Below, piece after piece: positions 3,599-22,141 of a DNA stretch of 24,000 nucleotides. Position 1 is the first letter of the stretch; each line of letters starts with the position of its first letter. The notes beneath the pieces are model-generated. The model was not told the DNA's origin. It searched no databases and saw nothing but the letters and a program-made list of their open reading frames with translations. The DNA comes from Sulfurirhabdus sp. (GTDB lineage: Bacteria > Pseudomonadota > Gammaproteobacteria > Burkholderiales > SMCO01). Both the position numbers and the translations under genes were made by a program. The stretch covers positions 5,495-29,494 of the forward strand of contig JAYVLG010000071.1 in NCBI GenBank assembly GCA_043759595.1. The letters are read 5' to 3'.

Positions 3599-3630
3599 AA
3601 AAAAAAAGCGCAACCTATTTAGGTTGCGCT
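3599..3630 (-). terminator. strong unidirectional intrinsic terminator with no annotated gene upstream
   Basis: On the minus strand, a perfect 10-bp stem AGCGCAACCT/AGGTTGCGCT (3607-3616 / 3621-3630) with a 4-nt loop is followed by a run of 9 U (3599-3607). Confidence 0.8.
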
Positions 3631-3703
3631 AAAATCCACCAAAGAAGGGGGATGGAGGAGACACCATCAAGACGCTTATTAAGATGGGGAAGCGTCCAGA
3701 TGT
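3599..3703 (-). ncRNA. candidate ~105-nt small RNA (promoter + terminator defined), function unknown
   Basis: Bounded by the promoter-like TTGCAC-17-GATAAT (3738-3710) and the terminator at 3599-3630. It contains a hairpin GACGCTT...AAGCGTC (3671-3696) and a C/U-rich stretch CUCCUCCAUCCCCCUUCUUU. No ORF longer than 12 codons. Confidence 0.3.
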
Positions 3704-5030: not shown

Positions 5031-5063
5031 ATCCCACCTAAAACAACTTCTACACACAGAGCT

Positions 5064-9007: not shown

Positions 9008-9029
9008 AATGAAAACAGGGAACGTCCCT
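9008..9029 (-). terminator. weak candidate terminator after trpC
   Basis: On the minus strand, AGGGA-CGT-TCCCT (starting at the stop codon) is followed by GTTTTCATTT. The stem is short. Confidence 0.3.
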
Positions 9030-9871
9030 TAACCAAACAACCTTGCCAGCTCCTGACCCGGATCAGAGGCGCGCATGAATGCTTCACCGACGAGGAAGGT
9101 GTGGACGTTGTGATTACGCATGAGTGCGACGTCTTCTGGTTTGTGAATGCCGCTTTCGGTGACGACTATTCGGTCCGCAGGGATGTTTGACAACAATTCG
9201 AGGGTGGTTTCGAGGCGGGTTTCGAAGGTGCGCAAGTTTCGATTGTTGATGCCAATCAGGGGGGTGGTGAGTTGCAGGGCGATATCCAGTTCGGTGCTGT
9301 CGTGTACTTCTACCAGTACGGCCATGCCTAGTTTATGGGCTAGTTTCTCCAGTTCCTGCATGGCGGCAAGATTGAAGGTTGCGGCACCCTCTCCCCTGCC
9401 CTCTCCCATCGAGGGAGAGGGGGTTTGAAAGGCGGCGACTATGATCAATATGGCATCGGCTCCCATTGCGCGGGCTTCGTAGACTTGATACGGGTCTATC
9501 ATGAAATCTTTGCGCAATACTGGCAGGTTACAGGCTGCGCGGGCTTGTTTGAGATATTCTGCATTCCCCTGAAAAAATTGCTCGTCTGTTAATACAGACA
9601 GGCAAGCTGCACCATGTTGGGCGTAGCTTTGTGCAATTTCGGCGGGATTGAAATTTTCGCGTAGCAGGCCTTTGCTGGGGCTGGCTTTTTTGATTTCTGA
9701 AATAACAGCTGATTTGTCGGCCTGAATTTTGTTGCGAATGGCGGCTACAAAATCTCTTGGAGCGGGTTGTGCCTGGGCTTCTGCCTTGACCGCGTGTAAC
9801 GGTTTTGCGACTTTTGCTGTGGCTACTTCTTGCGCTTTGACGGAGAGGATTTTATTTAGGATATCGGACAT
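9029..9871 (-). CDS. trpC: indole-3-glycerol phosphate synthase, carrying an in-frame repeat-derived insertion
   Basis: 280 aa: [55 protein letters not shown]. There is an extra segment [19 protein letters not shown] between ILIIVAA and the following helix. Confidence 0.93.
9385..9423 (+). repeat. family C hairpin repeat, copy C1, inside the trpC coding sequence
   Basis: caccctctcccctgccctctcccatcgagggagaggggg, 37/39 identical to C6 at 12095-12133. It is translated on the minus strand as [12 protein letters not shown]. Confidence 0.9.
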
Positions 9872-9974: not shown

Positions 9975-10002
9975 TTAACCGCAGAGGCGCGGAGGCGCAG
10001 AG
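9975..10002 (+). repeat. family A repeat, copy A5 (encodes the C-terminus and stop of the GxxExxY gene)
   Basis: ttaaccgcagaggcgcggaggcgcagag. Its rc encodes ...SAPPRLCG*. Confidence 0.9.
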
Positions 10003-10409
10003 GTTTCTTGGAGCTGGTTCACTAGTCTCTTAATTCCAAGCTTTAGAATGGGAACATTGAAATTAATTAGCAGCCCTACGGTGCATGGGTATAGTTTGAG
10101 ATAGGTTAGCAACTGCGCTTCATGAATTGGGGCTAGTTTTTCGACTGTTTTAAGTTCAATGATTACGCTTCCTTCAACAACCAAATCCAGCATATAACCA
10201 CAATCCAGTTTTATATTCTTATAGCTGACTGGCAACGCTACTTGCCTGCGAAAACTGAGGCCTTGGCTGGATATTTCATAGCACAGGCACTCTTCATAGG
10301 CAGATTCCAACAGTCCGGGGCCTAGCGTACGGTGCACTTCAATTGCGCAACCAATGATCGCCTCGGTAATTTGGTTTTCACTCTGCGCCTCTGCGCCTCC
10401 GCGGTTCAT
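9975..10409 (-). CDS. GxxExxY family protein (PD-(D/E)XK nuclease superfamily fold)
   Basis: 144 aa with [25 protein letters not shown] (GLLESAY is the GxxExxY motif) and [13 protein letters not shown] (D...ExK). The ATG overlaps the trpD stop as ATGA (10406-10409). No SD. Confidence 0.85.
10381..10408 (-). repeat. family A repeat, copy A6 (encodes the N-terminus of the GxxExxY gene)
   Basis: ctctgcgcctctgcgcctccgcggttca. Its rc encodes [10 protein letters not shown]. The octamer order is permuted relative to A5. Confidence 0.9.
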
Positions 10410-11434: not shown

Positions 11435-11456
11435 TTATATTGCACCTGTTATTTTA

Positions 11457-11495
11457 CTCCCTCTCCCTTGATGGGAGAGGGCTGGGGAGAGGGTG
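11457..11495 (-). repeat. family C repeat, copy C2
   Basis: Its rc, caccctctccccagccctctcccatcaagggagagggag, is 38/39 identical to C6. Confidence 0.9.
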
Positions 11496-11514
11496 GAGAA
11501 ATAACGTTGGTTCG

Positions 11515-11553
11515 CCCCCTCTTCCTGTCCTTCTCCCACGAGGGGAGAAGGGA
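11515..11553 (+). repeat. family C repeat, copy C3 (diverged)
   Basis: ccccctcttcctgtccttctcccacgaggggagaaggga. It has the same architecture, with hairpin TTCTCCC-ACGA-GGGGAGAA. Confidence 0.75.
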
Positions 11554-11589
11554 CCTGCTAATCAGTTCTCATCCGGAAACATCTGTTTT

Positions 11590-11628
11590 TTCCTCCCCCT
11601 TGATGGGGGAAAGCCAGGGAGAGGATGG
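11590..11628 (-). repeat. family C repeat, copy C4 (diverged)
   Basis: ttcctcccccttgatgggggaaagccagggagaggatgg. Confidence 0.7.
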
Positions 11629-11646
11629 TAACGCCTTGAAATTTAA

Positions 11647-11684
11647 CCCCTATCCCCAGCCCTCTCCCACAAGGGGAGAGGGAG
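11647..11684 (+). repeat. family C repeat, copy C5
   Basis: cccctatccccagccctctcccacaaggggagagggag. Confidence 0.8.
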
Positions 11685-11750
11685 ATGTAGTGTTTCCGGA
11701 TGGGAACTAATTAATATGATCTTATAATGCCGACACCCAAGCTTTTGGCT

Positions 11751-12119
11751 CTACCGCATTAAATGTTGGGTAATGACATCCCATACACCATCCATATTCT
11801 GCAACACATCATGATTCCAGAATCTTAACACTTCAAACCCTTGTGATTGGAGCCAGCTTGTCCTTGTTTCGTCTTTTATTTCATGCACTGGGTCTGCATG
11901 TTTGCCCCCATCCAGCTCTACCACCAATTTTTTCTCGAAGCAGACAAAATCTACCACATAGTTGCCTATGGGTTGCTGCCGTTTGAATTTGCATCCATGC
12001 AACTGTTTGGCTCGCAGTTGCTGCCATAGCTTTTTTTCAGCTTCGGTGATGTTTTTTCTTAGCTGTTTGGCTATGTCGGTTAAATGGTTTGGCACACCCT
12101 CTCCCCTGCCCTCTCCCAT
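11751..12119 (-). CDS. DUF559 domain endonuclease-like protein (Vsr-like PD-(D/E)XK fold)
   Basis: LRKNITEAEKKLWQQLR...FKRQQPIGNYVVDFVCFEKKLVVELDGGKHAD...RTSWLQSQGFEVLRFWNHDV is the DUF559 pattern. The ATG at 12119 (or TTG at 12122) lies in the loop of repeat C6, and the N-terminus MGEGRGEG is repeat-encoded. No SD. Confidence 0.8.
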   Translation of the reverse strand: MGEGRGEGVPNHLTDIAKQLRKNITEAEKKLWQQLRAKQLHGCKFKRQQPIGNYVVDFVCFEKKLVVELDGGKHADPVHEIKDETRTSWLQSQGFEVLRFWNHDVLQNMDGVWDVITQHLMR

Positions 12120-12133
12120 CAAGGGAGAGGGAG
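12095..12133 (+). repeat. family C repeat, copy C6 (contains the DUF559 start codon; ends 1 nt from the trpG stop)
   Basis: caccctctcccctgccctctcccatcaagggagagggag. Confidence 0.9.
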
Positions 12134-12134
12134 T

Positions 12135-17422: not shown

Positions 17423-18637
17423 ATGGAAAGCCAAATCAAAACCGCTTCACCCTTATTTGCCATCCTTTTCCTGTTATTTGGCATCAGTGCCTGTACGACG
17501 GTTTCCAAACCGAAGGTTGCCCCTCCAGCTATCGCACTTCCCCCTGTAGTGACTCCGCCAGTTAGTGTGAAAACTGAACCCGCTGCACCGACGCTGCAAA
17601 TAAGTGACTGGAAAGCTTTGCCTGGCTGGCAGGATGATAACCAGGCTACCGCCTGGGAAGCCTTTCTGCAAAGTTGTAACGGCCTGAAAAATCAGGTTGC
17701 ATGGCAGCAAGTATGTAAATCAGGGCAGCAAATTCAACACCCTGACAGCCAGTCCCTGAGACGATTTTTTGAACAGAATTTCACCCCTTATCTGGCAACA
17801 AACCCGGACGGGACGTCCCAAGGCATGATCACAGGTTATTACGAACCTGTGTTAAGAGGCAGCCGCACCCGCACTGCAAAATACCGCTTTCCACTCTATG
17901 GGGCGCCGGGCGATTTACTCAATATCGAACTGGCTGATGTTTATCCGGAGCTGAAGGGCTTGCGGTTACGAGGCCGCATTCAAGGCAATAAAGTTGTGCC
18001 TTATTACAGCCGTGCTGAAATTGAAAGTGCACAGTCACCGCTGAAAGGGTCAGAATTTTTATGGGTTGATGATGCTATCGACCTGTTCTTTTTGCATGTT
18101 CAGGGTTCCGGCCGTGTGAAACTCGAAAATGGCGAATCTGTGAGAATCGGATATGCCAACCAAAATGGCTTCCCTTATAAATCCATTGGCAAAGTTTTGG
18201 TTGATCGTGGCGAGCTGCCCCTGGAAAAAGCATCTGCACAAGGCATTAAAGACTGGACGCTGAAAAATCCGGGAAAAATGTCCGAGTTGTTAAACAACAA
18301 TGCCAGTTATGTGTTTTTTCGGGAGATGCCGAATCATCAAAATGGTCCGACCGGATCGCTTGGTGTTCCCCTCACAGCCGGACGCAGCATTGCCGTTGAC
18401 CCCCGCTCTATACCACTGGGCGCACCGGTTTTCCTTTCCACCACCTGGCCTAACAGTACCAAACCCCTTAGCCGTTTAGTGATGGCACAAGATACGGGTG
18501 CTGCAATCAAAGGTGGCGTTCGCGCTGATTTCTTTTGGGGATTTGGTAATGATGCGGGAGCACTTGCCGGCCGCATGAAACAGCAGGGGCAATTATGGGT
18601 ATTGTTGCCCAAGGGATACCCGGTTAGCACGAATTAG
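17423..18637 (+). CDS. mltA: membrane-bound lytic murein transglycosylase A (lipoprotein)
   Basis: Lipobox ...LFGISAC, then ITGYYEP, FLHVQGSGRV, YKSIG, SIAVDP, AQDTGAAIKG (MltA/3D domain motifs). Confidence 0.9.
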   Translation: MESQIKTASPLFAILFLLFGISACTTVSKPKVAPPAIALPPVVTPPVSVKTEPAAPTLQISDWKALPGWQDDNQATAWEAFLQSCNGLKNQVAWQQVCKSGQQIQHPDSQSLRRFFEQNFTPYLATNPDGTSQGMITGYYEPVLRGSRTRTAKYRFPLYGAPGDLLNIELADVYPELKGLRLRGRIQGNKVVPYYSRAEIESAQSPLKGSEFLWVDDAIDLFFLHVQGSGRVKLENGESVRIGYANQNGFPYKSIGKVLVDRGELPLEKASAQGIKDWTLKNPGKMSELLNNNASYVFFREMPNHQNGPTGSLGVPLTAGRSIAVDPRSIPLGAPVFLSTTWPNSTKPLSRLVMAQDTGAAIKGGVRADFFWGFGNDAGALAGRMKQQGQLWVLLPKGYPVSTN

Positions 18638-18722
18638 CTCTCATCCGGAAACAACTGCCCCCCTCCCTTTGATGTGGGAGGGCCAGGGAGGGGTATAGCG
18701 TTTCCGGATGAGAACTCATTAA
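18634..18722. mobile_element. nested MITE-like element (family D TIRs around one family C copy) filling the mltA/TonB-like convergent gap
   Basis: ttagctctcatccggaaaca (18634-18653) and gtttccggatgagaactcattaa (18700-18722) are inverted repeats around C7. The ends include the mltA TAG (18635-18637) and the TonB-like TAA (rc 18719-18721). It probably acts as a bidirectional terminator hairpin. Confidence 0.65.
18657..18694 (-). repeat. family C repeat, copy C7 (diverged)
   Basis: cccccctccctttgatgtgggagggccagggaggggta. Confidence 0.7.
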
Positions 18723-19489
18723 TTTTCAGGTTTCAATGGAATACGGAGAATTTTTCTGTCTGGGATTGGCACTTCGTATCGCACTCGTACCATGAAACGG
18801 CTTTTCACCTCTCTGCCTTCCCGTTTGGCAGGGACAAATCGCGCATTGCGGAAAGCGGCTATCGCAGACTCTTCAAAATAGCCTTCCGGAATAGCATCCA
18901 CCACGGAAACATCTTTTACCACCCCCAGCTCATCAATCAAAATAAGCAAAGTTACATCACCTTCAATATTGGCAGCGCTGGCATCTTCAGGATATTCAGG
19001 GTTGATCGATTGCAACGGCTTGGGTTGTTCATCCAGCTGTTTTGCAGGATAGTAAGTCGGGTCTTCCATTAACGGAATATCAAGCGCAGGCAGGCCAGAC
19101 TTTTGCTCACTCAGCACACTGTCGCTTTGTTTTTGCTCAGTATCATCCGATGTCAGTTTTTGAGGTGGCGCAATGGCAGGTTGCGGCTCTTGCACAGGCT
19201 CGGGTTTAGCCTGTTTTACCGGCTCTGCAGTCGGCAAGCTTTTCTCTTTGGCAACCGTTTCTTTTTTTATTTCCACTACTTCTTTTAATAGCGCAGGGGC
19301 TGGTTTGGCATGAGGCTTTACCCCTTCCAGACGCGCTTCAATCACTACTTGTCTGGGCCTGTTTGCTCCGCCTGGTTTGACCTTTATGCCATAAATAATA
19401 CCCAGATGAATGACAAGAGAAAGCACTAATGCCAGCGCAATGCGCTGGATAGTTACCCGACTGATTTTGGTGCAAGCAAAAGCACTCAT
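18719..19489 (-). CDS. TonB-like energy transducer
   Basis: N-terminal TM anchor (IALALVLSLVIHLGIIYGI), a Pro/Lys/Glu-rich spacer (KPEPVQEPQPAIAPPQ), and a C-terminal TonB_C-like domain (PEYPEDASAANIEGDVTLLILIDELGVVKDVSVV...F.PAKREGREV). Confidence 0.8.
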   Translation of the reverse strand: MSAFACTKISRVTIQRIALALVLSLVIHLGIIYGIKVKPGGANRPRQVVIEARLEGVKPHAKPAPALLKEVVEIKKETVAKEKSLPTAEPVKQAKPEPVQEPQPAIAPPQKLTSDDTEQKQSDSVLSEQKSGLPALDIPLMEDPTYYPAKQLDEQPKPLQSINPEYPEDASAANIEGDVTLLILIDELGVVKDVSVVDAIPEGYFEESAIAAFRNARFVPAKREGREVKSRFMVRVRYEVPIPDRKILRIPLKPEN

Positions 19490-20421: not shown

Positions 20422-20506
20422 GTATTTTTCCGGTCACTATGCGCCAATAAGTGCATTGTGCTGATAGGTGTGTAGAAAGAAATACACGCCTATTCACACA
20501 AATTAG

Positions 20507-20527
20507 TTCACCGCAGAGGCGCGGAGG
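20507..20527 (+). repeat. family A repeat, copy A10 (truncated)
   Basis: ttcaccgcagaggcgcggagg. Confidence 0.8.
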
Positions 20528-20585
20528 GAAAAGCGGTTTCGAGGTGCTTCAGGTTGCGTATGGTGGTCGTTAATGCGCCGAATAA

Positions 20586-20617
20586 CGGTCAATGCACTTC
20601 GCTTATTGACACCCTAC
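20586..20617 (-). repeat. family B REP hairpin, copy B1 (GTAG head on minus strand)
   Basis: The rc reads GTAGGGTGTCAATAAGCGAAGTGCATTGACCG. Confidence 0.7.
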
Positions 20618-20701
20618 AACACGCCTTGCATGCGTTGCAAGTCAGTAAGGCTCTTGGCGACGCAGCAGCCATCCAGAATTTAAGTTCAATCATCTCAATT
20701 G

Positions 20702-21847: not shown

Positions 21848-21914
21848 ACGTTGAGATTTAATACCAGTTCAGAAATGCGTATAAAAGAAATACACGAGTA
21901 TTCACACAAAATAG

Positions 21915-21942
21915 TTCACCGCAGAGACGCGGAGGCGCAGAG
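21915..21942 (+). repeat. family A repeat, copy A11
   Basis: ttcaccgcagagacgcggaggcgcagag (1 mismatch to A1). Confidence 0.9.
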
Positions 21943-22006
21943 GAAAAGGCTGTTTCGAGGTGCATCAACTCGCTTAGAGTGATCGATAAAGCAACGAATA
22001 AAACAT

Positions 22007-22040
22007 CCGGTGCAATGCGCTTCGCTTATTGACACCCTAC
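22007..22040 (-). repeat. family B REP hairpin, copy B2
   Basis: The rc reads GTAGGGTGTCAATAAGCGAAGCGCATTGCACCGG. Confidence 0.75.
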
Positions 22041-22141
22041 AAGATGCCTTACGCGCGCTATGGCTTACCCCGGCACTTTTAGCAAAATGGGCACGCTGTA
22101 AATAAAGTGGATGATACAAATCCAATTTAGAGGGAAACTAA

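What the first reader, a model, noticed from the sequence alone, without database searches (positions are those of the whole stretch)
9374..9430. In-frame insertion of a family C hairpin repeat inside the trpC coding sequence (about 18 extra residues)
Positions 9385-9423 are 37/39 identical to the intergenic repeat at 12095-12133. Within trpC this copy is translated as ...[39 protein letters not shown].... By my recollection of E. coli and Pseudomonas TrpC, homologs run directly from the ILL(M/I)(L/V)S.L strand into the helix (DD..(Y/M)..LA..A). That puts about 18 extra residues (54 nt) in a beta-alpha loop of the TIM barrel. This copy has no stop codon in any of the six frames (checked by eye). 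It also retains a CTCTCCC/GGGAGAG stem that would fold in the mRNA. The same reading frame (MGEGRGEG) forms the N-terminus of the DUF559 protein. An essential biosynthetic enzyme tolerating a mobile hairpin repeat in frame is uncommon and gives a dated, testable insertion event.
Basis: partly seen in the sequence, partly recalled or inferred. Interest (0 to 1): 0.7.

Follow-up and report, generated by a model that had tools for sequence, protein, structure and literature searches.

The report
Mobile repeat translated inside TrpC enzyme
A 40-base G/C-rich repeat of the BoxC / "triplex-motif" kind sits in frame inside the tryptophan-synthesis gene trpC and is read as a floppy 18-residue surface loop, and because related bacteria carry such repeats at the same codon, this is an old, repeatedly re-used landing site, not a one-off recent insertion.

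Summary
Window 9385-9424 is a near-exact copy of a repeat also at 12095-12134 and 11456-11495. It adds exactly 18 codons (54 nt) to trpC (9029-9871, minus strand), between barrel strand beta4 and helix alpha4. The copy has no stop codon in any frame and contains a 9-bp hairpin.

- **Repeat family.** It is a BoxC/PIT/"TM" intrastrand-triplex motif (Holder 2015), which that paper reports as always intergenic in E. coli K-12.
- **Age.** The insertion is not private or datable. Sulfurirhabdus autotrophica has the same insert (trpC dS 0.56, dN/dS 0.08).
- **Spread.** 113 of the 120 best TrpC homologs carry 8-200 extra residues at the same codon. The states are intact motifs, decayed motifs, opposite orientation, other sub-families, tandem copies, and one allele with a whole DUF559 endonuclease gene in frame.
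- **Level of conservation.** The core is conserved at the nucleotide level: 10/10 third positions identical against 43% in the rest of the gene.

In passing, all 11 DUF559 genes I examined, from several distantly related bacterial groups plus E. coli ycjD, have these motifs within 300 nt, mostly on both sides. I read the trpC copy as a tolerated passenger in a re-used landing site. It is a new variant of a known kind (Rickettsia-type coding repeats).

The parts
9029..9871 (-). trpC (indole-3-glycerol-phosphate synthase), 280 aa; last gene of the operon trpE-trpG-[DUF559]-trpD-[PDDEXK_3]-trpC
   Evidence: Pfam IGPS E 3.7e-90. PDB 6y88 E 1e-83. dN/dS 0.08 against S. autotrophica. AlphaFold mean pLDDT 92.5.
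9374..9427 (-). The 54-nt (18-codon) insertion, [18 protein letters not shown]. It could equally be drawn 3 nt further along as FQTPS...AAT, because F codons flank both ends.
   Evidence: 18-residue gap against 6y88 and 3tsm and against insert-less relatives (AAL-xL..M). Residues 153-162 have pLDDT below 50, with short beta bridges at 149-150 and 165-166.
9385..9424 (-). 40-nt repeat core (TM/BoxC-type). On the mRNA strand it reads ACCCCCTCTCCC-TCGAT-GGGAGAGGG-CAG-GGGAGAGGG-TG, that is C-block, loop, G-block, spacer, G-block.
   Evidence: Pattern and repeat searches. Matches the architecture and sequence of the TMECO table in PMC4666352. Found by my three-block scan, which gave 0 hits in shuffled DNA.
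9399..9421 (-). Hairpin: arms 9399-9407 and 9413-9421 (CCCTCTCCC / GGGAGAGGG), loop 9408-9412
   Evidence: strand folding centroid -19.3 kcal/mol.
12095..12134 (-). Intergenic sister copy overlapping the annotated start of the DUF559 ORF; same orientation as the trpC copy
   Evidence: 1 mismatch in 37. Strict three-block hit at 12099-12131.
11456..11495 (+). Intergenic sister copy in inverted orientation, downstream of the DUF559 ORF and just upstream of trpD. Together with 12095-12134 it brackets the DUF559 gene (98% complementary arms, 599 nt apart).
   Evidence: (I1). Identical over 33/33 nt in S. autotrophica, whereas synonymous sites of trpC differ at 39%.
11751..12122 (-). DUF559 (Vsr-like PD-(D/E)XK endonuclease) ORF, co-oriented with the operon
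   Evidence: Pfam PF04480 E 1.5e-43. Homologs at 50-60% identity occur in distantly related bacterial groups.
11508..11713 (.). Further diverged repeat copies (11508-11553, 11592-11628, 11648-11687). The last two lie inside a MITE-like unit (11559-11713) bounded by TAATNAGYTCTCATCCGGAAAC inverted repeats.
   Evidence: The MITE-like unit is absent from S. autotrophica.
18632..18723 (.). Second MITE-like unit with the same terminal inverted repeats around a diverged repeat copy (18661-18697)
   Evidence: (D3, D14, D16, I20, I23).

Best explanation
What it is. The segment is a translated copy of a BoxC/PIT/'TM'-type G/C-rich repeat (pyrimidine block, loop, purine block, spacer, purine block). It is lodged in the beta4-alpha4 loop of indole-3-glycerol-phosphate synthase.

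How it survives. It behaves as a tolerated passenger. It is 3n long, has no stop in any frame, and emerges as a disordered surface loop held by two short anchor stretches (F148-Q149 and T165-F166). The enzyme stays under strong purifying selection.

Its history. It is not a recent private event. The codon after '..IVAA' has been occupied since before the two known Sulfurirhabdus lineages split. It is also occupied in many other betaproteobacterial TrpCs, with several gains or losses.

Turnover at the site. In some lineages the motif decays into ordinary loop sequence. In others it stays or becomes nucleotide-identical to the currently active repeat family. It can flip orientation, change sub-family or multiply. 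In one allele it has received a complete DUF559 endonuclease cassette in frame.

Inferred mechanism. I infer that an existing repeat copy acts as a landing pad. Repeat-directed recombination or re-insertion, probably tied to the DUF559 endonuclease genes that these motifs flank, keeps refreshing the DNA. Selection on TrpC then lets through only in-frame, stop-free outcomes.

Shown: repeat identity, reading frame, loop position, gene function, distribution, nucleotide-level conservation, and the DUF559-motif association. Inferred: the refresh or homing mechanism and any role of DUF559.
For: Repeat and frame.

Family: same three-block architecture and near-identical blocks as the TMECO sequences of PMC4666352.

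Loop position: AlphaFold pLDDT 92.5 overall and below 50 at residues 153-162, between beta4 and alpha4.

Functional gene: dS 0.556, dN 0.046, ratio 0.08. E59, K61, K121, E188, N209, E239 and S240 are invariant in 40 homologs. The operon context is canonical.

Old and shared:
- The same insert is in S. autotrophica, with 3/54 nt differences where 39% is expected at neutral sites (P 1.5e-8).
- 113 of 120 homologs carry 8-200 extra residues at the same codon, and 61 have a recognisable motif peptide.
- A Fitch count of insert presence gives 10 steps on the tree (bootstrap 6-16) against 50-68 for shuffled tip states.

DNA-level conservation, not peptide-level:
- Third positions of conserved codons are identical in 10/10 codons of the core, against 43% (L085) and 55% (L081) in the rest of trpC (Fisher p 3e-4 and 3e-3).
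- An intergenic copy is 33/33 identical between the two Sulfurirhabdus genomes.

Turnover:
- A decayed core of the same 54-nt length in L083.
- The C-block read in a different frame in L090.
- Opposite-orientation copies (LSPTLPRQGGGG) in the Sulfuricella group.
- CCCCCCTT-type motifs in L089.
- Tandem or nested copies in P0047, P0012, P0067 and P0076.
- A full motif-DUF559-motif cassette in frame in L082/P0111.

DUF559 link: all 11 DUF559 genes examined have a motif within 300 nt, mostly on both sides. All 11 are co-oriented with their neighbours.
Against: - No refresh, conversion or homing event was observed directly.
- Core identity between lineages could also come from independent insertions of a repeat family that is nearly the same across distantly related groups.
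- The TrpC-only neighbour-joining trees are weak at depth, so the number of gains and losses is uncertain.
- The top-120 homolog list is biased towards insert carriers, because candidates are chosen by shared words. In the pattern-based genome scan only 4 of 80 betaproteobacterial loci had an insert.
- A peptide-level role for the loop is not excluded. The flanking F residues are nearly universal in carriers (112/113), and within one clade the insert is about as conserved (82%) as the enzyme (84%).
- Holder et al. found no mobility genes next to E. coli motifs. E. coli has 23 motifs, and only one of them lies beside its DUF559 gene, ycjD.
Confidence: 0.7

Rival explanations
1. One reading: a single, recent, lineage-private insertion of a mobile hairpin into trpC that can be dated by comparison with close relatives lacking it.
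For: 37/39 identity to an intergenic copy in the same window. Imperfect 7-8-nt direct repeats flank the insert (CCTTTCAA / CCTTCAA). Similar direct repeats flank the 12095 copy (TTAAATGG / TTAAGTGC), read.
Against: S. autotrophica carries the same insert at dS 0.56. Relatives at 77-83% identity (L081, L083) also carry inserts with the same outer junctions (TTT CAA AC... / ...GCA ACY TTC). The nearest insert-less TrpCs are only 76-78% identical.
Confidence: 0.03
2. One ancient insertion was co-opted as a functional TrpC loop and is kept by selection on the peptide (PSPxxGEGxGEG with F anchors).
For: Within one clade the insert is about as conserved as the enzyme: 82% against 84%, and 86% for the 12-residue core. 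F148 is present in 112/113 carriers, whereas insert-less sequences have L in 82/83. A shared right junction (A/E/T)TF(N/D)(L/V) appears in several clades.
Against: Identity extends to synonymous third positions (10/10 against 43-55%). Intergenic copies are equally conserved. Many lineages have let the motif decay or replaced it with other sub-families, frames or orientations, and others lack any insert. The tip of the loop is predicted to be disordered.
Confidence: 0.1
3. The repeat is kept in trpC for a cis function of the nucleic acid in the trp operon. Possibilities are mRNA stabilisation or a translational pause through the hairpin, or a DNA structure that promotes local recombination.
For: A stable 9-bp G/C hairpin. 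Nucleotide-level conservation. The motif family forms triplexes in vitro and marks unstable loci in E. coli (PMC4666352; abstract, discussion).
Against: The fold is only z -2.0 against shuffles. An earlier study found no promoter or terminator activity, and in-vivo footprinting did not support a triplex (PMC4666352 discussion). Close relatives work with decayed motifs (L083) or none (L009, P0098).
Confidence: 0.1
4. The locus is a decaying pseudogene or a redundant paralog, so the insertion is tolerated because the gene does not matter.
For: None found. The rest of the genome could not be searched for a second trpC.
Against: dN/dS is 0.08 over 280 codons. The ORF is intact in two species, and Logan assemblies carry 97%-identical cluster members. 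The catalytic residues are invariant. The gene has the canonical position as the last gene of trpEGDC. The AlphaFold model is confident.
Confidence: 0.02

Closest known systems
[quoted passage not shown] 2000, 2002; summarised in PMC10969869)
   Same: A dispersed palindromic repeat found both between genes and in frame inside housekeeping ORFs. It is translated, has no stops, and sits where the fold tolerates it.
   Different: RPEs are about 100-150 bp, are confined to Rickettsia, and encode a conserved peptide. Here the unit is about 40 nt and G/C-rich, belongs to a family spread across distantly related bacterial groups, and re-uses one codon of one gene across many genera. No sequence relationship to RPEs was tested or is expected.
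BoxC / PIT / TM (TMECO) intrastrand-triplex repeats (Holder et al. 2015, PMC4666352)
   Same: The same three-block layout and almost the same blocks (CCCTCTCCC, GGGAGAGGG, GGG[A/T]GAGGG). The family is multi-copy, highly conserved, occurs singly or as inverted pairs, and is linked to local rearrangement.
   Different: In E. coli K-12 the motif is reported as always intergenic and without any associated mobility gene. Here one copy is coding and in frame, and the copies flank DUF559 endonuclease genes.
REP/REPIN repeats with their single-copy RAYT transposase
   Same: Short hairpin repeats in many copies, plus a protein gene flanked by inverted copies of the same repeat.
   Different: The flanked gene here is a Vsr-like PD-(D/E)XK endonuclease (DUF559), not an IS200/IS605-type tyrosine transposase. 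No activity on the repeat has been shown. No RAYT was seen in the window, and I did not search for one.
Free-standing homing endonuclease genes and inteins
   Same: Small nuclease ORFs wedged, co-oriented, between conserved genes of operons (trpG/trpD, trpD/trpC, carA/carB, MCP/cheW). One copy is in frame inside a host enzyme (P0111).
   Different: P0111 was not examined for splicing motifs. Homing has not been demonstrated. Any target would be a repeat rather than a unique host sequence.

Membership tests
BoxC/PIT/TM intrastrand-triplex motif (PMC4666352) | Three consecutive G/C-rich blocks (pyrimidine, purine, purine; stems 6-15 nt, loops 1-6 nt), with the first two complementary | tested here: met
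   ACCCCCTCTCCC-TCGAT-GGGAGAGGG-CAG-GGGAGAGGG. My three-block scan finds it at 9389-9421, with 0 hits in shuffled DNA. Compare the TMECO table.
BoxC/PIT/TM intrastrand-triplex motif (PMC4666352) | Many highly similar copies in one genome | tested here: met
   4 strict and at least 3 diverged copies in 24 kb. The whole-genome count could not be made.
BoxC/PIT/TM intrastrand-triplex motif (PMC4666352) | Intergenic location (as reported for E. coli K-12) | tested here: not met
   This copy lies inside the trpC coding sequence, in frame. This is a descriptive feature of the E. coli set, not a structural criterion.
BoxC/PIT/TM intrastrand-triplex motif (PMC4666352) | Forms a stable intrastrand triplex as single-stranded DNA in vitro | not testable with these tools
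   Only hairpin folding could be computed.
RPE-like in-frame coding repeat | The same repeat is present both intergenically and inside ORFs, in frame and without stops | tested here: met
RPE-like in-frame coding repeat | The insertion sits at a surface position compatible with the host fold and function | tested here: met
   beta4-alpha4 loop with a disordered tip. dN/dS 0.08.
RPE-like in-frame coding repeat | Sequence homology to a Rickettsia RPE family | not tested
   Length and composition differ (40 nt G/C-rich against about 100-150 bp). I claim analogy only.
MITE | Terminal inverted repeats and target-site duplication | tested here: inconclusive
   The 40-nt unit is one hairpin plus a third block, without separate terminal inverted repeats. 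Imperfect 7-8-nt direct repeats flank two of the three near-identical copies. The larger units at 11559-11713 and 18632-18723 do have 22-nt terminal inverted repeats.
Indole-3-glycerol-phosphate synthase (TrpC, PF00218) | Full-length match to the family, catalytic residues present, operon context | tested here: met
   Pfam 302 bits against a cut-off of 27. PDB 6y88 E 1e-83. Invariant E59, K61, K121, E188, N209, E239, S240. trpE-G-D-C order.
DUF559 / Vsr-like endonuclease (the neighbouring ORF) | Match to PF04480 over the whole domain | tested here: met
   E 1.5e-43, residues 14-121 of 123. Nuclease activity is not testable here.

The most novel reading that the evidence does not exclude
BoxC/PIT/TM 'triplex' repeats, whose origin has been unexplained, may be the termini and the landing sites of a selfish cassette spread across distantly related bacterial groups. 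The cassette encodes a DUF559 (Vsr-like) endonuclease. It travels as motif(+)-ORF-motif(-), settles co-oriented inside host operons, and leaves solo motifs or inverted motif pairs behind. On this reading the trpC beta4-alpha4 loop is one such landing pad embedded in an essential coding sequence, where only in-frame, stop-free outcomes survive. This would explain the nucleotide-level freshness of the motif, the orientation flips and tandem copies, and the allele with the whole endonuclease gene translated inside TrpC.
Probability: 0.4. Interest if true: 0.8.

Novelty: new variant of a known kind. Interest (0 to 1): 0.6.

Why it matters
**Repeat biology.** Translated selfish repeats inside housekeeping enzymes are textbook only for Rickettsia. 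Here a different repeat family, spread across distantly related bacterial groups, does the same in free-living chemolithotrophs. It does so at one codon of one enzyme across many genera. That gives a natural series of states (empty, fresh, decayed, inverted, tandem, nuclease-bearing) at a single defined site.

**Protein engineering.** The series is a ready-made experiment on how much a TIM-barrel beta-alpha loop on the catalytic face can absorb, from 8 to 200 residues.

**Origin of the repeats.** The association with DUF559 genes turns an open question into a direct biochemical test with E. coli YcjD or the Sulfurirhabdus protein. The question is what makes and moves BoxC/PIT/TM repeats, and why they mark unstable loci.

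Tried and rejected
- **Genome scan.** It returned mostly insert-less Burkholderiales and did not contain the source genome.
- **Metagenome scan.** I built an alignment meant to force an insert-specific pattern (…IVAAF), but the tool chose GAD[CA]IL[LI]IV. Only 23 loci came back. They were useful but few.
- **Motif-peptide search.** A protein search with concatenated motif peptides, meant to find other host proteins with in-frame copies, found nothing. How common coding copies are outside trpC therefore stays unknown.
- **Motif finder.** My first regex was too rigid, giving 5 hits and none in the window. I replaced it with a three-block scanner.
- **Bootstrapping.** Biopython neighbour-joining timed out, so I replaced it with a numpy version.
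- **Target-site duplication.** Imperfect direct repeats flank two of the three near-identical copies but not the third. I make no firm claim.
- **E. coli fabI-ycjD polymorphism.** The break about 40 nt from the motif in roughly 2,000 genomes is a TetR/RND island in the one genome I opened. It is not a motif or DUF559 presence/absence polymorphism, so it says nothing about mobility.
- **Matching to the genome's own repeats.** The idea that each lineage's trpC motif matches the other motifs of its own locus holds in the window. It does not hold in L106 or L089, so it cannot separate conversion from re-insertion.
- **Rfam.** No known RNA family lies at or near the insert.
- **Literature.** No paper linking DUF559 or ycjD to these repeats turned up in the searchable library.
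Full report
**1. The observation**

The ORF at 9029-9871 on the minus strand encodes a 280-aa indole-3-glycerol-phosphate synthase (Pfam PF00218, E 3.7e-90). Its best solved relative is P. aeruginosa IGPS 6y88 (E 1e-83).

Window 9385-9424 reads CACCCTCTCCCCTGCCCTCTCCCATCGAGGGAGAGGGGGT on the plus strand. The same sequence occurs at three places:
- 9385 (the trpC copy);
- 12095, with 1 mismatch in 37;
- 11459, inverted, with 2 mismatches in 37.

None was found in 100 shuffles. More diverged copies lie at 11592-11628, 11648-11698 and 18661-18697.

HMMER alignments to 6y88 and to Brucella 3tsm open a gap of exactly 18 residues opposite [18 protein letters not shown], which is window 9374-9427. 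The 40-nt core has no stop in any of the six frames. On the mRNA strand it forms a 9-bp CCCUCUCCC/GGGAGAGGG stem with a 5-nt loop. The centroid is -19.3 kcal/mol and the 66-nt MFE is -31 kcal/mol (z -2.0 against shuffles). Every factual element of the finding is therefore confirmed.

**2. Where it sits in the protein, and whether the gene works**

AlphaFold2, run with a 40-sequence alignment, gives a confident TIM barrel (mean pLDDT 92.5, pTM 0.90). The barrel strands are at 55-60, 90-94, 118-121, 140-144, 184-189, 205-209, 235-239 and 258-261.

The insert lies between beta4 (140-144) and alpha4 (168-180). Residues 153-162 have pLDDT below 50, and short bridges form at 149-150 and 165-166. So it is a disordered loop on a short stalk, on the C-terminal (catalytic) face of the barrel. 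By general knowledge of IGPS, this loop carries no catalytic residue.

The catalytic positions E59, K61, K121, E188, N209, E239 and S240 are invariant in the alignment.

The window comes from a Sulfurirhabdus species. Its TrpC, TrpD and TrpG are exact matches to an NCBI contig of 47,323 nt. They fall in the same 90% clusters as the S. autotrophica proteins. Against S. autotrophica (locus L108), trpC has dS 0.556, dN 0.046 and a ratio of 0.08. This is a working gene, not a pseudogene.

**3. What the repeat is**

Read on the mRNA strand, the unit is ACCCCCTCTCCC-TCGAT-GGGAGAGGG-CAG-GGGAGAGGG-TG. That is a pyrimidine block, a loop, the complementary purine block, a short spacer, and a second purine block.

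A full-text search for the blocks led to Holder et al. 2015 (PMC4666352). They describe exactly this layout and almost these sequences as the G/C-rich 'triplex motif' (TMECO in E. coli), earlier called BoxC or PIT elements. An example from their table is CCCTCTCCCTTGAGGGAGAGGGTTAGGGTGAGGGT.

According to the paper:
- the motif occurs in more than 260 genomes;
- it forms a triplex in vitro as a single strand;
- it marks rearrangement-prone loci;
- it is 'always located intergenically' in E. coli K-12;
- no mobility function was found next to it.

The coding location is what is new.

**4. The insertion is neither private nor recent**

S. autotrophica has the same 54-nt insert, with 3 differences in 54 nt against 106 in 843 for the whole gene.

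Among the 120 best TrpC homologs, 113 carry 8-200 extra residues at the same codon. Of these, 112 begin with F, where 82 of 83 insert-less sequences have L. Sixty-one show a recognisable motif peptide:
- PSPxxGEGxGEG in 50;
- the opposite-orientation reading LSP(A/T)L..GG in 6;
- a PPFxKGGxGG sub-family in 9.

Named carriers include Sulfuricella denitrificans, Nitrosospira, Gallionellaceae, Rhodocyclales and Hydrogenophilaceae MAGs, and two Nitrosomonas genomes (L016, L033).

That list is biased towards carriers, because candidates are chosen by shared words. In the pattern-based genome scan only 4 of 80 betaproteobacterial loci had an insert. Sideroxydans, Gallionella, Methylophilaceae, Dechloromonas, Thiobacillus and one Sulfuricella MAG have none.

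On a neighbour-joining tree of 186 TrpCs with the insert columns removed, presence or absence needs 10 Fitch steps (bootstrap range 6-16). Shuffled tip states need 50-68. The insert is therefore mostly inherited vertically, but it has been gained or lost several times.

**5. The site turns over**

DNA from 20 carrier loci shows the following states.

| State | Where |
|---|---|
| Fresh motif, 38/40 identical to the window's | L085 (TrpC 68-69% identical) and L081 (79-83% identical, depending on the alignment) |
| Decayed core, same 54-nt length, same outer junctions (TTT CAA AC… / …GCA ACY TTC) | L083, a relative as close as L081 |
| C-block read one nucleotide out of register with the window's (FPPLPRGGEGRGEG) | L090 |
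| Other sub-families (CCCCCCTT-type, CCCCTCCCCC-type) | L089, L106 |
| Two to four copies in tandem or as inverted pairs | P0047, P0012, P0067, P0076, P0095 |
| A complete DUF559 ORF with motifs on both sides, read through in frame as a 473-aa TrpC | L082 / P0111 |

**6. The conservation is at the DNA level**

At codons whose amino acid is conserved, third positions are identical in 10 of 10 codons of the motif core. In the rest of trpC the figure is 43% (window against L085, Fisher p 3e-4) and 55% (against L081, p 3e-3).

Between the two Sulfurirhabdus genomes the insert has 3/54 differences. About 39% would be expected at neutral sites (P 1.5e-8). An intergenic copy upstream of trpD is 33/33 identical.

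Peptide-level selection on an old loop cannot produce this pattern. It needs nucleotide-level constraint, gene conversion from other copies, or re-insertion from a family that is itself nearly invariant.

The family is indeed nearly invariant. E. coli, Chloroflexi and Sulfurirhabdus copies differ by only a few bases. For that reason, conversion and independent insertion cannot be told apart here.

**7. The link with DUF559**

In the window, the DUF559 ORF (11751-12122, minus strand; PF04480, E 1.5e-43) lies between trpG and trpD. It is bracketed by inverted motif copies 98% complementary to each other.

A three-block scanner found 34 motifs in 990 kb of fetched loci and none in shuffled DNA. 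All eight DUF559 genes in that DNA had a motif within 300 nt:
- the window;
- S. autotrophica (L108, and its duplicate assembly L109);
- two genes in L018;
- L082;
- L089;
- E. coli ycjD.

I then fetched four DUF559 homologs from other bacterial groups. All four showed the same layout:
- Chloroflexi (L111);
- Ca. Wunengus (L112);
- Desulfobacterales (L113);
- a marine alphaproteobacterium, between carA and carB (L114-116).

In these four, a motif in the C-G-G orientation ends 10-60 nt before the start codon, and an inverted motif lies at or just past the 3' end.

In the 11 independent cases the gene is co-oriented with its neighbours. In most it sits inside what looks like an operon: trpG/trpD three times, trpD/trpC, inside trpC, MCP/cheW, and carA/carB. 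About a fifth of predicted DUF559 N-termini (21 of 120) are motif-encoded peptides.

I found no paper that links DUF559 or ycjD with these repeats. Such work could exist outside the searchable library.

**8. How it most likely works**

Shown:
- a repeat of the TM/BoxC family is translated as a disordered loop in a functional TrpC;
- the position is old and widely shared;
- its DNA is kept or renewed at the nucleotide level;
- the family flanks DUF559 nuclease genes.

Inferred: a resident motif is a landing pad for further motif-directed events (conversion, re-insertion, or cassette homing). Selection on an essential enzyme filters these to 3n, stop-free products. The motif makes such products easy to obtain, because it is open in all six frames. 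Where renewal stops, the motif decays into ordinary loop sequence, as in L083, the Nitrosomonas loci and the 'CGPDGLNAGNGEESDP' clade.

I put 0.7 on the passenger-in-a-re-used-site reading and about 0.4 on DUF559 being the agent.

**9. Rivals**

| Rival | Main evidence against | Weight |
|---|---|---|
| Recent private insertion | | 0.03 |
| Co-opted functional loop | third-position identity, alternative frames and orientations, frequent decay or absence | 0.1 |
| Cis-acting RNA or DNA role in the operon | not excluded, but relatives do without it, and the E. coli study found no promoter or terminator activity | 0.1 |
| Pseudogene | dN/dS 0.08 | 0.02 |

**10. Comparison with what is known**

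As a phenomenon it works like the Rickettsia palindromic elements (Ogata 2000, 2002, via PMC10969869). As a sequence it belongs to the TM/BoxC/PIT family.

It differs from both in three respects:
- it is a coding copy of a family described as intergenic;
- one codon is re-used across many genera;
- it is tied to a nuclease gene.

I therefore file it as a new variant of a known kind, with interest 0.6.

Noticed in passing
window 11456-12134; L108, L018, L082, L089, L110-L116: All 11 DUF559 (Vsr-like endonuclease) genes examined have TM/BoxC-type motifs within 300 nt, mostly as inverted copies on both sides. All are co-oriented with their neighbours, mostly inside apparent operons. The set includes E. 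coli ycjD and homologs from Chloroflexi, a candidate anammox lineage (Ca. Wunengus), Desulfobacterales and a marine alphaproteobacterium (between carA and carB). The published description of these repeats reports no associated gene.
   Followed up: partly
window 9975-10409 (-), with repeats at 5063, 8855, 8968, 9872, 9967, 10378, 12702, 14274, 14389, 20499, 21907, 23439: A second nuclease-plus-repeat pair. A PDDEXK_3 ('GxxExxY') ORF sits between trpD and trpC, bracketed by inverted AACCGCAGAGGCGCGGAGGCGCAGAG repeats that encode both its N- and C-terminal tails. The same repeat marks many intergenic spacers in the window. PDDEXK_3 homologs lie in the trp region of 12 of about 110 fetched loci.
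   Followed up: partly
window 11559-11713 and 18632-18723: MITE-like units with 22-nt terminal inverted repeats (TAATNAGYTCTCATCCGGAAAC) enclosing one or two diverged TM-like hairpins. The 11559-11713 unit is absent from the orthologous spacer of S. autotrophica.
   Followed up: partly
L082 1494-2915 (protein P0111, MAG GCA_038929685.1): A 473-aa predicted TrpC with a complete DUF559 domain and flanking motifs read through in frame at the same beta4-alpha4 site. Whether it is active, or backed up by another trpC, is unknown.
   Followed up: partly
window 3600-3663 (-): Rfam match to Betaproteobacteria_toxic_sRNA (RF02278): 61.3 bits against a gathering score of 50, E 2.6e-10.
   Followed up: no
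L110 (E. coli K-12 1349500-1352500) and L117 (O157:H7): In roughly 2,000 of 5,426 complete E. coli genomes, collinearity with the K-12 fabI-ycjD spacer ends about 40 nt before the TM motif. In the one O157:H7 genome I opened, a TetR regulator gene and an RND efflux adaptor gene follow the break. This is consistent with the reported instability next to these motifs.
   Followed up: partly
window 12095-12122: The annotated DUF559 start (TTG/ATG inside the repeat, giving MMGEGRGEG) is probably too far upstream. Most homologs begin about 10 residues later, and a GTG follows the G-rich blocks, which could serve as a ribosome-binding site.
   Followed up: no
window 20476-20634 and 21884-22057: Two direct repeats of about 150 nt, 77-92% identical across the aligned segments and 1,408-1,423 nt apart. 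Both begin with the GCAGAGGCGCGGAGG-type repeat. I did not examine them further.
   Followed up: no
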